In this document: positions 1-4,257 of the stretch, piece by piece | Position numbering within the stretch: position 1 is the stretch's first letter | Layout: the number at the start of each line of letters is the position of its first letter | Virus record (IMG/VR): IMGVR_UViG_2695420658_000007 | DNA from: a virus | Lineage: Duplodnaviria; Heunggongvirae; Uroviricota; Caudoviricetes | Length of the DNA stretch: 4,415 nt | Reading direction: 5' to 3' (one strand) | Position numbers and translations under genes: made by a program | The notes under the pieces: model-generated | What the model saw: the letters and a program-made list of their open reading frames with translations, nothing else | What the model was told of the DNA's origin: nothing | The model's database searches: none

Positions 1-61
1 CAAACTATCTAATTTTTGCGTCGCTTTTTGTGTTAGGTCGCTGTAACTGATAAACCCTACG

Positions 62-265
62 TTAGCACCTACAATTAACACTAAGAACACTTATGAAGGA
101 AATGAATAGAAATATAGATGTTGATGTTTTTAGATATTTTTCAGGAAATAATGGGTGAGCAATAATGTATACAAGATTAAGTAGTATATAAATTGCTACC
201 GGAATGAAAATCATGCTCCAGTGTGTATCTTTTTTGGGAGGGATTGGCTGCAAATAATCAGACAC
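62..265 (-). CDS. hypothetical small membrane protein (two hydrophobic segments); start codon uncertain
   Basis: Minus-strand ORF in the six-frame track (67 aa). Reading the bases, the codon at 265..263 is GTG, and the first in-frame ATG is at 214..212 (giving 50 aa). Two hydrophobic stretches (WSMIFIPVAIYILLNLVYIIAHPLF and SIFLFISFISVLSV). Weak Shine-Dalgarno for either start. Same strand and AT-rich composition as the upstream ORF 348..767. No homolog recognised. Confidence 0.3.
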   Translation of the reverse strand: MSDYLQPIPPKKDTHWSMIFIPVAIYILLNLVYIIAHPLFPEKYLKTSTSIFLFISFISVLSVNCRC

Positions 266-347
266 CGTTTTTCCATCAGTTTCAAGAAGAATTACTAGAT
301 CTCTTACTTCACCACTGACTTGAGTGCATCCTTAGTAGTAATGTTAA

Positions 348-767
348 TCATTTTTTCCCTCCAAATACGATGCCCTCTACGTCTTTGGAAGCTTTTTGTG
401 ATGACCACTCCTCTGAATCAGGTGATTTAATTAAAAATATTGTATCTCCATCAAAAATCGTATTTGTTCCGTAAAAATTCACATTTGATAGATCACCACC
501 AAAAACCCTCTGCCCACTCGAGGTAATTGCCTCACCTAATTTAGTAAAATTACCANNNNNNNNNNNNNNNNNNNNNNNNNNNNNNNNNNNNNNNNNNNNN
601 NNNNNNNNNNNNNNNNNNNNNNNNNNNNNNNNNNTGGCTTTAATTACACCACCACCATCCTTAGAGTTAAATAATTGAATGTCCACTCCAGCAGTTGGTT
701 GTATATATTTTGAAAGCTCTTTCTTGAACTTGTTAATATATTTATCTTTGTTTTCTTTGTTGGTCAT
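348..767 (-). CDS. hypothetical protein, AT-rich prophage cargo gene (no recognisable family); reading frame passes through an N-run
   Basis: ATG at 767..765, TGA at 350..348. The flanks on both sides of the 89-nt N-run are open in the same frame (44 codons before, 66 after). About 30% G+C by hand count over 61..240, versus 58% over 1081..1140 in the Nin genes. The visible protein is Gly/Asn/Ser/Lys-rich with no signal peptide. No strong SD upstream. Confidence 0.5.
   Translation of the reverse strand: MTNKENKDKYINKFKKELSKYIQPTAGVDIQLFNSKDGGGVIKAXXXXXXXXXXXXXXXXXXXXXXXXXXXGNFTKLGEAITSSGQRVFGGDLSNVNFYGTNTIFDGDTIFLIKSPDSEEWSSQKASKDVEGIVFGGKK
546..634. other. run of undetermined bases (N x 89) inside the ORF 348..767
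   Basis: Literal n characters in the sequence; content unknown. Not a multiple of 3, so frame continuity of the surrounding ORF depends on the run being true length. Confidence 0.99.
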
Positions 768-854
768 TGGTTAGATCCATAGTTCTGGCTGTGATTAGGT
801 GAAAGTATACAAGGTTTTTAAAGCGAAGATCACTGTTTTGGCTTCAAGATAGTT

Positions 855-2521: not shown

Positions 2522-2905
2522 ATGCGTGATATTCAGATGGTTCTTGAGCGTTGGGGAGCGTGGGCGGCTAATAATCATGAAGATGTGACCTGGTCGTCCA
2601 TTGCCGCCGGTTTTAAGGGATTAATTACTTCAAAAGTAAAATCTCGCCCGCAATGTTGTGACGATGACGCGATGATTATTTGCGGGTGCATGGCCCGTCT
2701 GAAAAAGAACAACAGCGATTTGCACGATTTATTAGTAGATTATTATGTAGTCGGTATGACATTCATGTCACTGGCAGGTAAGCATTGCTGCTCTGATGGT
2801 TATATCGGGAAAAGGTTACAGAAGGCTGAGGGCATAATTGAAGGGATGTTAATGGCATTAGATATCCGGTTAGAGATGGATATCGTTGTTAATAACTCTA
2901 ATTAA
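2522..2905 (+). CDS. quuD: Q-family late-gene antiterminator (QuuD-like, 127 aa)
   Basis: ATG at 2522 with GGAG (2511..2514) 7 nt upstream. The protein [31 protein letters not shown]... has several Cys residues, consistent with a Q-type zinc-binding antiterminator. Sits at the end of the Nin operon as Q does in lambdoid phages. The track ORF starts at an upstream TTG (2507). Confidence 0.85.
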
Positions 2906-2929
2906 TATGCCAATTGTTTACTAAAAATT

Positions 2930-2957
2930 ATTAAAAATGGGGCGTTGCAACGCCCCC
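2930..2957 (-). terminator. Rho-independent terminator for the minus-strand porin/sRNA transcript, between convergent quuD and the porin gene
   Basis: Perfect 18-bp palindrome GGGGCGTTGCAACGCCCC at 2939..2956. On the minus strand the hairpin is followed by ATTTTTAATAATTTTT (complement of 2923..2938), a classic U-tract. On the plus strand it is followed by CAAAAATAAAGG, with no U-tract, so it is a poor terminator for quuD readthrough. Confidence 0.6.
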
Positions 2958-3100
2958 AAAAATAAAGGNNNNNNNNNNNNNNNNNNNNNNNNNNNNNNNN
3001 NNNNNNNNNNNNNNNNNNNNNNNNNNNNNNNNNNNNNNNNNNNNNNNNNNNNNNNNNNNNNNNNNNNNNNNNNNNNNNNNNNNNNNNNNNNNNNNNNNNN
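2931..3100 (-). ncRNA. ipeX: possible IpeX-like porin-regulating sRNA; body lies almost entirely in the N-run, only the terminator is visible
   Basis: Established knowledge recalled from memory: in DLP12 a roughly 167-nt sRNA (IpeX) is encoded just 3' of nmpC and ends at the nmpC terminator. Here the terminator (2930..2957) and the porin are present in the right arrangement. The 5' coordinate is extrapolated, not observed. Confidence 0.25.
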
Positions 3101-3271
3101 NNNNNNNNNNNNNNNNNNNNNNNNNNNNNNNNNNNNNNNNNNNNNNNNNNNNNNNNNNNNNNNNNNNNNNNNNNNNNNNNNNNNNNNNNNNNNNNNNNNN
3201 NNNNNNNNNNNNNNNNNNNNNNNNNNNNNNNNNNNNNNNNNNNNNNNNNNNNNNNNNNNNNNNNNNNNNNN
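2969..3271. other. run of undetermined bases (N x 303) covering the porin 3' end and the porin-to-terminator interval
   Basis: Literal n characters; content unknown. Confidence 0.99.
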
Positions 3272-4257
3272 AGTAATAGGTTGCACCTACATCAATATAT
3301 TCAACCAGGTCCTGATCACCCCACGCACCCAAGTCTTTTCCTTTAGATTGCAGGTAAGCNNNNNNNNNNNNNNNNNNNNNNNNNNNNNNNNNNNNNNNNN
3401 NNNNNNNNNTCGAACTGATATTGTGCAACTACTTCGAAGTTTTGTGCTTTGTTGGCAATATGGTTATTACCAAAAACAGTCATGTTCTGGGTTTCAGAAT
3501 AGGTGGTAGCCAGATAGATGTTGTTCGCATCATATTTCAGACCAGCTGCCCATACTTCAGCATTTTGACCAGATGCATTCAGGCTGTTGTTACCGTAGAT
3601 AACCTGATTATTAGTGCGGTCAGATTTAGCATAGGTTGCACCTACACCGAATCCTTCATACTCATAAGTAGTGGAGAAACCGAAACCATCACCATTAGCT
3701 TCAGTTACGTCAGTGCGGTCATTTTTACCCTGATACTGAGCAGCAAAGTTCAGACCATCAACCAGACCAAAGAAGTCGTTGTTACGATAAGTTGCAACAC
3801 CAGTGGTGCGACCAGTCATGAACACATCTGTTTGAGTCCAAGTGTCACCACCGAATTCTGGCAGGACGTCAGTCCACGCACCGATGTCGTATGCTACACC
3901 GTAGTTACGGCCGTAATCGATGGAGCCGTAGTCACCGAATTTCAGGCCAGCGAAGGCAAGACGGGTTTTATCTTTGGAGGAACCTTGAGATTCAGCGCGG
4001 TTGCCTTTGAATTCATATTCCCACTGACCGAAACCAGTCAGTTGATCGTTGATTTGGGTTTCACCTTTGAAGCCAAGACGGGCATAAGTAGTATCACCAT
4101 CATCTGCATCATTAGAGGAGAAGTAGTGCTTAGCATTAACTTTCCCGTACAGATCCAGCTTGTTACTGTCTTTATTATAAATTTCAGCTGCCTGAGCAGA
4201 CATCGCCATCAGTACTGATGCAGCTACAGCAGAAATTGCCACTGTTAATTTTTTCAT
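3147..4257 (-). CDS. nmpC: NmpC/Lc/OmpD-type general porin (prophage-encoded OmpC/OmpF/PhoE family); 3' end inferred inside the N-run
   Basis: ATG at 4257..4255 with AAGGG 6 to 7 nt upstream. Signal peptide [23 protein letters not shown] followed by AEIYNKD. 282 continuous codons down to ...[10 protein letters not shown] at 3412. Beyond the 50-nt N-run the fragment [29 protein letters not shown] (3359..3273) is typical porin C-terminal sequence. About 40 more residues are expected, so the stop is placed near 3147 by length extrapolation (visible support ends at 3272). The frame differs across the 3360..3409 gap (see findings). Confidence 0.85.
3360..3409. other. run of undetermined bases (N x 50) inside the porin gene
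   Basis: Literal n characters. The round length of 50 suggests a conventional scaffold-gap placeholder rather than a true-length mask. Confidence 0.99.

What the first reader, a model, noticed from the sequence alone, without database searches (positions are those of the whole stretch)
2906..3271. Perfect palindromic terminator and a masked interval that may hide an IpeX-like sRNA
Seen: the 18-bp perfect palindrome at 2939..2956 with a U-tract only on the minus strand terminates the porin-side transcript just 33 nt from the quuD stop. By length extrapolation the porin stop should lie near 3147, leaving about 190 nt of non-coding minus-strand RNA before the terminator, almost all of it masked. 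Established knowledge from memory: DLP12 encodes the sRNA IpeX in exactly this nmpC 3' position, and in K-12 an IS5 interrupts nmpC nearby. Whether this strain carries an IpeX-like RNA, something different, or an unassembled repeat cannot be seen.
Basis: partly seen in the sequence, partly recalled or inferred. Interest (0 to 1): 0.45.

Follow-up and report, generated by a model that had tools for sequence, protein, structure and literature searches.

The report
Prophage porin terminator; hidden IpeX homologue
This is the ordinary junction between the Q antiterminator gene and the porin gene of a DLP12/PA-2-type prophage; the masked bases almost certainly hold the end of the porin gene and its 3' untranslated region, which is the already described small RNA IpeX.

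Summary
The visible observation holds. GGGGCGTTGCAACGCCCC lies at 2939-2956, is terminator-like only on the minus strand, and starts 33 nt after the quuD stop. The run of N at 2969-3271 cannot be read.

About 120 related loci have 249-251 nt between the same flanks (1450 nt with IS5, as in K-12), never 303. Twelve of the 13 loci with identical 40-nt flanks carry one identical 250-nt filling: 125 nt of porin coding end and 125 nt of 3'UTR.

All three N runs in the window are longer than the homologous DNA, by 42, 53 and 28 nt. Read literally, the 50-nt run would frameshift a porin that is otherwise 100% identical in protein. N-run length is therefore not a usable ruler.

The inferred 3'UTR is 165/172 identical to the K-12 ipeX region. 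It occurs in 2,503 of 5,426 complete E. coli genomes and 36 phage records, including PA-2. It has an invariant single-stranded stretch that pairs 15 bp with the ompC ribosome-binding site.

Verdict: an already known element, inferred by homology and not seen in this window. Low interest.

The parts
2522..2905 (+). quuD, the phage Q-type antiterminator gene. It converges on the porin gene; stop codon TAA at 2903-2905.
   Evidence: Pfam Phage_antitermQ, E 3.5e-53. Annotated quuD in 100%-identical relatives.
2923..2938 (-). U-rich tail of the terminator (AUUUUUAAUAAUUUUU on the minus strand). The expected 3' end of the porin mRNA and of IpeX lies around 2930-2933.
   Evidence: Sequence and terminator scan. 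The exact 3' end is inferred.
2939..2956 (-). Terminator hairpin with a 7-bp G+C stem and a 4-nt loop. It is a perfect 18-bp palindrome only because the loop is UGCA.
   Evidence: The same stem with other loops occurs in relatives.
2957..2968 (-). Visible 3' end (CCUUUAUUUUUG) of the single-stranded stretch upstream of the terminator. The first 11 nt (CCUUUAUUUUU) end the invariant 31-nt stretch and are part of the ompF-complementary stretch.
   Evidence: Identical in relatives; pairing prediction.
2969..3271 (-). Run of 303 N. The inferred content from relatives is 250 nt: 125 nt of 3'UTR (the IpeX body, with hairpins SL1-SL3 and the ompC/ompF-complementary stretch) followed by the last 125 nt of the porin CDS including the stop. 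The position of the stop in window coordinates is undefined because the N run is 53 nt longer than the homologous DNA.
   Evidence: Twelve of 13 loci with identical 40-nt flanks share one 250-nt filling.
3272..3359 (-). Visible island of the porin CDS (residues 291-319 of the 360-aa porin: [29 protein letters not shown]).
   Evidence: 100% identical to L001, L003 and L079; translation.
3360..3409 (-). Run of 50 N inside the porin CDS. All relatives have 22 nt here (codons for DFGLRPSV). A literal 50 nt would shift the frame.
3410..4257 (-). Porin gene (nmpC/lc family, annotated 'porin OmpC' by PGAP), residues 1-282, ATG at 4257.
   Evidence: 282/282 aa identical to WP_000737275.1; Pfam Porin_1 on that homologue, E 3e-153.

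Best explanation
The finding is the convergent junction between quuD and a prophage porin gene of the nmpC/lc family, in a DLP12/PA-2-like lambdoid prophage of E. coli.

The hairpin at 2939-2956 with its U-rich tail is the intrinsic terminator of the minus-strand porin transcript. This is shown by the sequence.

The N run hides, by inference from relatives, the last 41 codons and the stop of the porin gene, and 125 nt of its 3'UTR. With the visible 12 nt, hairpin and tail, that UTR makes an RNA of about 165-170 nt that is the homologue of IpeX. The cited reviews describe IpeX as a 167-nt RNA of DLP12, made as part of the porin transcript, that lowers OmpC and OmpF.

Proposed mechanism (inferred):
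1. The RNA is transcribed from the porin promoter and released by processing near the stop codon.
2. It folds into three 5' hairpins, a ~40-nt single-stranded stretch and the terminator.
3. The invariant single-stranded stretch pairs with the Shine-Dalgarno regions of the host ompC mRNA (15 contiguous pairs) and ompF mRNA (15 of 16), blocking translation.
4. A lysogen thereby replaces host porins with the phage porin.

The N run is a mask or assembly gap whose length is not the true length.
For: Locus identity:
- The flanks are 98.6-100% identical to E. coli prophage loci annotated ylcG-quuD-porin.
- Pfam confirms Q antiterminator and Porin_1.

Terminator.

Hidden content:
- In 126 terminator matches (about 120 related loci), the spacing between the window's flank sequences is 249-251 nt in the 99 where both flanks were found. 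Two have 1450 nt with IS5, and 25 lacked the right flank.
- Twelve of 13 loci with identical 40-nt flanks carry one identical 250-nt filling.
- The closest relative, L079, is 100% identical over 2,977 flank bases and has 250 nt there.

IpeX homology:
- The inferred UTR is 165/172 identical to the K-12 nmpC-quuD intergenic region.
- The same UTR follows lc of phage PA-2.
- Literature for IpeX: PMC12197685, PMC5069750, PMC3617542.

Structure:
- The UTR fold has z = -8.2 against shuffles.
- The consensus of 18 variants gives SL1, SL2, SL3, a single-stranded stretch and the terminator. Seven one-sided changes keep their pairs and two break them.

Conservation:
- Mean pairwise difference is 0.027 in the UTR against 0.124 in the adjacent porin coding end, and 0 in the 31-nt seed stretch, across 44 haplotypes.

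Pairing:
- ompC: -19.9 kcal/mol duplex, 15 contiguous pairs over the SD. This was reached by 1 of 300 (energy) and 3 of 2000 (helix length) dinucleotide shuffles.
- ompF: -15.3 kcal/mol, reached by 5% of shuffles.
- The phage porin's own leader: only -8 kcal/mol.

No sigma-70-like promoter was found in the porin 3' end of a relative, which fits production from the porin transcript.
Against: - The body of the RNA is not visible in the window; everything about it is inferred from relatives.
- The N run is 53 nt longer than any homologous stretch. No tool result explains this.
- No compensatory base-pair changes support the fold, because divergence is too low.
- The loci used for the conservation figures were chosen by an exact match to the terminator, which biases toward conservation near it.
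- Reviews disagree on mechanism. One says IpeX does not act by base pairing (PMC3617542). Another calls it Hfq-independent (PMC8313858). Another says it needs Hfq for base pairing (PMC5069750).
- The primary paper (Castillo-Keller et al. 2006, PMC1347279) was not available.
- The ompF pairing is only marginally better than chance.
Confidence: 0.85

Rival explanations
1. The N run is literal. This strain would then carry about 53 extra bases (an insertion, a duplication or unrelated sequence) in the porin 3' end or 3'UTR, and 28 extra bases further into the gene. The porin would be a frameshifted pseudogene and the RNA a remodelled, non-IpeX-like molecule.
For: The window shows 303 and 50 N where relatives have 250 and 22 nt. 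The two excesses sum to 81, a multiple of 3. The window also has a 68-nt deletion at 91/92 that no other genome shows, so this copy may be unusual.
Against: - All three N runs, including one in an unrelated gene, exceed the homologous DNA.
- The visible porin protein is 282/282 identical to an intact 360-aa porin, and the 88-nt island is 100% identical in DNA and open only in the normal frame.
- None of about 100 loci with both flanks has such spacing, and none of 30 rows sampled across 2,505 E. coli records does.
Confidence: 0.05
2. The N run marks an IS5-interrupted porin gene, as in K-12 and phage 434. A repeated element would have been left unassembled, and the 3'UTR would be cut off from the porin promoter.
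For: K-12 has IS5 58 nt upstream of the nmpC stop. Two loci in the sample show the 1450-nt spacing, and the phage 434 record notes an IS5 insertion. Repeats commonly break short-read assemblies (general knowledge).
Against: The N run starts 189 nt before and ends 67 nt after the K-12 insertion point, so unique sequence is missing on both sides, which an IS-caused gap would not explain. Two other N runs in the window lie in unique DNA. None of the 13 loci with identical flanks has IS5.
Confidence: 0.04
3. The 3'UTR is only a structured mRNA end (terminator plus stabilising hairpins) with no trans-acting role in this strain. Its conservation would reflect recent spread of one prophage module, not selection on an sRNA.
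For: There is no covariation. The UTR variants differ by at most 10%, and prophage modules spread by recombination. No Rfam family exists for it. Clinical isolates showed no clear role of ipeX levels (PMC7177473).
Against: The adjacent coding sequence is about 4.6 times more diverse than the UTR in the same loci. A 31-nt stretch is invariant in 123 loci and matches the ompC ribosome-binding site far better than shuffles do. Published genetics assign OmpC/OmpF repression to this region (reviews).
Confidence: 0.1
4. The perfect palindrome is a protein-binding site or a bidirectional terminator that also ends quuD transcription.
For: Perfect 18-bp dyad symmetry, 33 nt after the quuD stop.
Against: The plus strand has no U tract after the hairpin. 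The symmetry is broken in most relatives: K-12 has UCUC in the loop and others UUUC, with no change in stem or energy.
Confidence: 0.02

Closest known systems
IpeX sRNA of cryptic prophage DLP12 (E. coli K-12; Castillo-Keller, Vuong and Misra 2006, as summarised in PMC12197685, PMC5069750 and PMC3617542)
   Same: Same genomic position: the 3'UTR of the nmpC-type porin gene, convergent with quuD. The terminator stem and tail are the same. The sequence that relatives carry between the window's flanks is 165/172 identical to the K-12 region. The expected length of about 165-170 nt matches the published 167 nt.
   Different: The body is masked in this window. The terminator loop is UGCA instead of CUCA, and there are five other small differences in the closest relatives. 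Here the porin gene appears intact with no IS5, so the RNA would be made from the porin promoter as in a PA-2 lysogen, unlike in K-12.
lc porin gene and its 3'UTR in phage PA-2 (J02580)
   Same: Same gene order and the same 3'UTR (96.4% over 191 nt; alignment), with an intact porin gene followed by the UTR.
   Different: The porin allele differs in the coding 3' end. The PA-2 UTR is the K-12 type.
3'UTR-derived sRNAs processed from mRNAs (a general class, for example CpxQ or SroC; from established knowledge)
   Same: The RNA shares the parent mRNA's terminator, no promoter of its own was detected in the coding end, and the seed lies in a single-stranded stretch upstream of the terminator.
   Different: It is phage-borne and targets host paralogues of its own parent gene. 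Processing and Hfq dependence were not testable here, and the literature is contradictory on them.
MicC and MicF, the host antisense sRNAs of ompC and ompF (from established knowledge; cited in PMC3617542)
   Same: Predicted pairing over the ribosome-binding sites of ompC and ompF.
   Different: Unrelated in sequence and origin, and a single RNA carries both complementary stretches. Base pairing by IpeX is a prediction here, not an established mechanism.

Membership tests
IpeX (DLP12/PA-2 porin 3'UTR sRNA) | Lies directly downstream of an nmpC/lc-type prophage porin gene and converges on the Q antiterminator gene quuD | tested here: met
   Window gene order and 98.6-100% identity to annotated loci; Pfam.
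IpeX (DLP12/PA-2 porin 3'UTR sRNA) | Shares the K-12 ipeX terminator (stem GGGGCGU/ACGCCCC, tail AUUUUUAAUAAUUUUU) and the preceding CCUUUAUUUUU | tested here: met
   Window 2915-2968 is identical to K-12 except for two loop bases.
IpeX (DLP12/PA-2 porin 3'UTR sRNA) | Sequence homology of the RNA body (about 125 nt upstream of the visible part) to K-12 ipeX | tested here: inconclusive
   Masked in the window. In 12 of 13 loci with identical flanks the body is 96% identical to K-12.
IpeX (DLP12/PA-2 porin 3'UTR sRNA) | Accumulates as a ~167-nt RNA derived from the porin transcript | not testable with these tools
   No expression data. No promoter-like site in the coding 3' end of a relative.
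IpeX (DLP12/PA-2 porin 3'UTR sRNA) | Lowers OmpC and OmpF synthesis post-transcriptionally | not testable with these tools
   Only predicted pairing is available: ompC -19.9 kcal/mol, reached by 1 of 300 shuffles; ompF reached by 5% of shuffles.
IpeX (DLP12/PA-2 porin 3'UTR sRNA) | Match to a curated RNA family model | not testable with these tools
   No Rfam 15 family matched the window or the unmasked homologue above chance. IpeX appears not to be in Rfam.
Intrinsic (Rho-independent) terminator | G+C-rich hairpin followed at once by a U-rich tract, downstream of a gene on the same strand | tested here: met
   (minus strand only); -13.9 kcal/mol; the porin gene is on the minus strand.
IS5-disrupted nmpC (K-12 configuration) | A 1.2-kb IS5 about 58 nt upstream of the porin stop | tested here: inconclusive
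   A literal 303-nt run cannot hold IS5, but the run's length is unreliable. None of 13 loci with identical flanks has IS5.

The most novel reading that the evidence does not exclude
The N run is literal. This prophage copy would then carry about 53 extra or different bases between the porin coding end and the terminator, plus a 28-nt change that frameshifts the porin. The hidden RNA would be a remodelled IpeX variant, or something unrelated, not seen in about 2,500 other E. coli genomes.
Probability: 0.04. Interest if true: 0.3.

Novelty: already known. Interest (0 to 1): 0.12.

Why it matters
It matters little for discovery. The element is the known IpeX/porin 3'UTR module, present in nearly half of complete E. 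coli genomes.

Two points are useful:
1. In this window the N-run lengths are not true lengths, so coordinates extrapolated across them are unsafe.
2. The comparison shows that the UTR is much better conserved than the neighbouring coding sequence. It also shows an invariant, predicted single-stranded stretch with a 15-bp match to the ompC ribosome-binding site and a weaker match to ompF.

If the second point is not already in the primary paper, which I could not read, it gives a simple, testable base-pairing model for an sRNA whose mechanism the reviews describe inconsistently.

Tried and rejected
- Rfam on the window and on the unmasked homologue gave nothing above chance.
- I could not find the source contig and so could not read the true bases:
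  - The junction of the window-specific 68-nt deletion is absent from viral contigs and metagenome contigs.
  - The only genome-contig scan returned three other E. coli records.
  - Two exact-protein look-ups of the deletion-specific ORF found nothing.
- The primary IpeX paper is not held, by DOI or by PMC id.
- Full-length duplexfold of the UTR against the ompC/ompF leaders gave unrealistic whole-molecule duplexes. I discarded it in favour of local, accessibility-corrected windows.
- The first shuffle script timed out.
- Covariation analysis was uninformative because the variants are at most 10% divergent.
- I rejected a special role for the perfect palindrome. The loop bases vary among relatives with no energy difference.
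- PADLOC gave no hit for the two upstream hypothetical genes.

Full report
**What is visible.** The window carries ybcN-ninE-ybcO-rusA-ylcG-quuD on the plus strand and a porin gene on the minus strand with its ATG at 4257.
- quuD (2522-2905) is a Phage_antitermQ protein, E 3.5e-53.
- The 18-bp palindrome GGGGCGTTGCAACGCCCC is at 2939-2956 and is unique in the window.
- It scores as an intrinsic terminator on the minus strand only: 7-bp stem, 4-nt loop, tail AUUUUUAAUA. The hairpin contributes about -13.9 kcal/mol.
- It starts 33 nt after the quuD stop.
- The window has three runs of N: 556-634 (79), 2969-3271 (303) and 3360-3409 (50).

**Where the locus belongs.** Megablast against 5,426 complete E. 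coli genomes finds the quuD-porin segment at 98.5-98.8% identity in the best-matching (listed) genomes, annotated ylcG, quuD and 'porin OmpC'.
- The whole window is matched at 99.2% in porcine ETEC strains.
- K-12 MG1655 has the same arrangement in DLP12, with nmpC interrupted by IS5 58 nt before its stop and a 189-nt nmpC-quuD intergenic region.
- The intergenic region is also found in 36 phage records, including PA-2 (lc gene) and 434.

**What the N run hides.** I collected about 120 loci that contain the terminator.
- The distance between the sequences that flank the window's N run is 249-251 nt in the 99 matches where both flanks were found, and 1450 nt in two IS5-bearing ones. It is never 303.
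- The second porin gap is always 22 nt, never 50.
- Thirteen loci have both 40-nt flanks identical to the window. Twelve carry the same 250-nt filling and one carries a 249-nt version.
- That filling is 125 nt of porin coding end (40 codons, a split codon and the stop) plus 125 nt of 3'UTR.
- The closest relative, L079, is 100% identical to the window over 2,977 bases of flank and has 37, 250 and 22 nt where the window has 79, 303 and 50 N.

**The N-run lengths are not true lengths.** All three runs are too long, by 42, 53 and 28 nt.
- The visible porin residues 1-282 are 100% identical to the 360-aa porin WP_000737275.1.
- The 88-nt island at 3272-3359 is 100% identical in DNA and open only in the normal frame.
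- A literal 50-nt run would therefore frameshift an otherwise perfectly conserved gene.
- I conclude that the N runs are masks or assembly gaps. In relatives the stop codon lies 137 nt upstream of the hairpin.
- I could not find the source record to settle this directly.

**Identity with IpeX.** Reviews describe IpeX as follows:
- a 167-nt RNA of DLP12;
- a repressor of OmpC and OmpF;
- with a counterpart in PA-2 (PMC12197685; PMC5069750; PMC3617542; PMC8065619).

The K-12 stretch from the nmpC stop to the end of the terminator tail is about 165-170 nt, so IpeX corresponds to the whole 3'UTR. This is my inference and the published length. The UTR of the window-type relatives is 165/172 identical to it. 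In the window the visible 54 nt (2915-2968) differ from K-12 only in two loop bases. Rfam has no family that matches this RNA. The UTR occurs in 2,503 of 5,426 complete E. coli genomes. In the 29 full-length rows of a spread sample it is always a single aligned piece of 184-192 nt.

**Anatomy and likely mechanism (from relatives).** The UTR folds far better than shuffles, z = -8.2.
- The consensus of 18 sequence variants has three hairpins (SL1, long and G+C-rich; SL2; SL3), a ~40-nt unpaired stretch and the terminator.
- Seven one-sided changes keep pairs, two break them and none is compensatory, so the fold rests on energy, not covariation.
- Among 44 haplotypes, mean pairwise difference is 0.124 in the last 173 nt of the porin gene and 0.027 in the UTR. 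The loci were chosen by the terminator sequence, which biases this figure near the terminator.
- The difference is 0 in the 31-nt stretch AACCUUCUGUUAUAUAUUACCCUUUAUUUUU, which is invariant in 123 loci.

Local, accessibility-corrected duplex prediction gives these results:
- AACCUUCUGUUAUAU pairs with AUAUAACAGAGGGUU of the K-12 ompC leader, 15 contiguous pairs covering the Shine-Dalgarno sequence, -19.9 kcal/mol.
- GUUAUAUAUUACCCUU pairs with the ompF Shine-Dalgarno-to-AUG region, -14.5 kcal/mol.
- The phage porin's own leader pairs only weakly, -8 kcal/mol.
- The ompC match was reached by 3 of 2,000 shuffles for helix length and 1 of 300 for energy. The ompF match was reached by 5% of shuffles.

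No promoter-like site lies in the porin 3' end, which fits synthesis from the porin promoter. I therefore favour a 3'UTR-derived sRNA that blocks translation of host porin mRNAs by base pairing, so that the lysogen swaps host porins for the phage porin. The pairing is a prediction. Reviews disagree on whether IpeX acts by base pairing and whether it needs Hfq, and I could not read the primary paper.

**The palindrome itself.** Its perfection comes from the loop (UGCA). Relatives have the same stem with loops CUCA or UUCA and the same energy. The plus strand has no U tract after it. It is a one-way terminator with no further significance. quuD transcripts would read through it, antisense to the porin gene (inference).

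**Verdict.** The visible observation is correct and the length extrapolation is not. The IpeX interpretation is strongly supported by homology but cannot be seen in this window. The element is already known and very common. Interest is low.

Noticed in passing
window 556-634, 2969-3271, 3360-3409: All three N runs are longer than the homologous DNA of a relative that is 100% identical in the flanks (79 vs 37, 303 vs 250, 50 vs 22 nt). N-run length in this window is not a true length.
   Followed up: yes
window 91/92: The window lacks 68-69 nt that are present in L079, L003 and all 46 complete E. coli genomes carrying this segment. The junction was not found in the viral or metagenome collections. 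It shortens a minus-strand hypothetical membrane-protein gene.
   Followed up: partly
window 3410-4257 (-): The porin coding sequence differs from its closest relatives at 11-27 nucleotide positions over about 972 nt. The encoded residues 1-282 are nevertheless 100% identical to WP_000737275.1, so at least against that allele all differences are synonymous.
   Followed up: partly
L001 3165-3195 (-), equivalent to window about 2958-2968 plus the masked bases beyond: A 31-nt stretch of the porin 3'UTR is invariant in 123 loci and predicted to be single-stranded. It contains a 15-bp match to the ompC Shine-Dalgarno region and a 15-of-16 match to the ompF Shine-Dalgarno/AUG region. I could not check whether the primary IpeX paper already reports this.
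   Followed up: partly
related loci, last ~173 nt of the porin CDS against the 3'UTR: The non-coding UTR is about 4.6 times less diverse than the adjacent coding sequence (0.027 vs 0.124 mean pairwise difference). This is the reverse of the usual pattern, though the loci were selected by their terminator sequence.
   Followed up: partly
window 1-780 (-); L003 1492-2294: Two A+T-rich minus-strand genes of unknown function lie between replication gene P and ybcN. One is a 142-aa predicted membrane protein with a weak sub-threshold 7TMR-DISM_7TM hit. The other is a 125-aa protein with no Pfam hit. Neither has a PADLOC hit. The cassette is present in only 46 of 5,426 E. coli genomes.
   Followed up: partly
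window 2906-2968 (+): quuD has no terminator of its own on the plus strand. Plus-strand read-through would be antisense to the IpeX region and the porin gene. The possible consequences were not examined.
   Followed up: no
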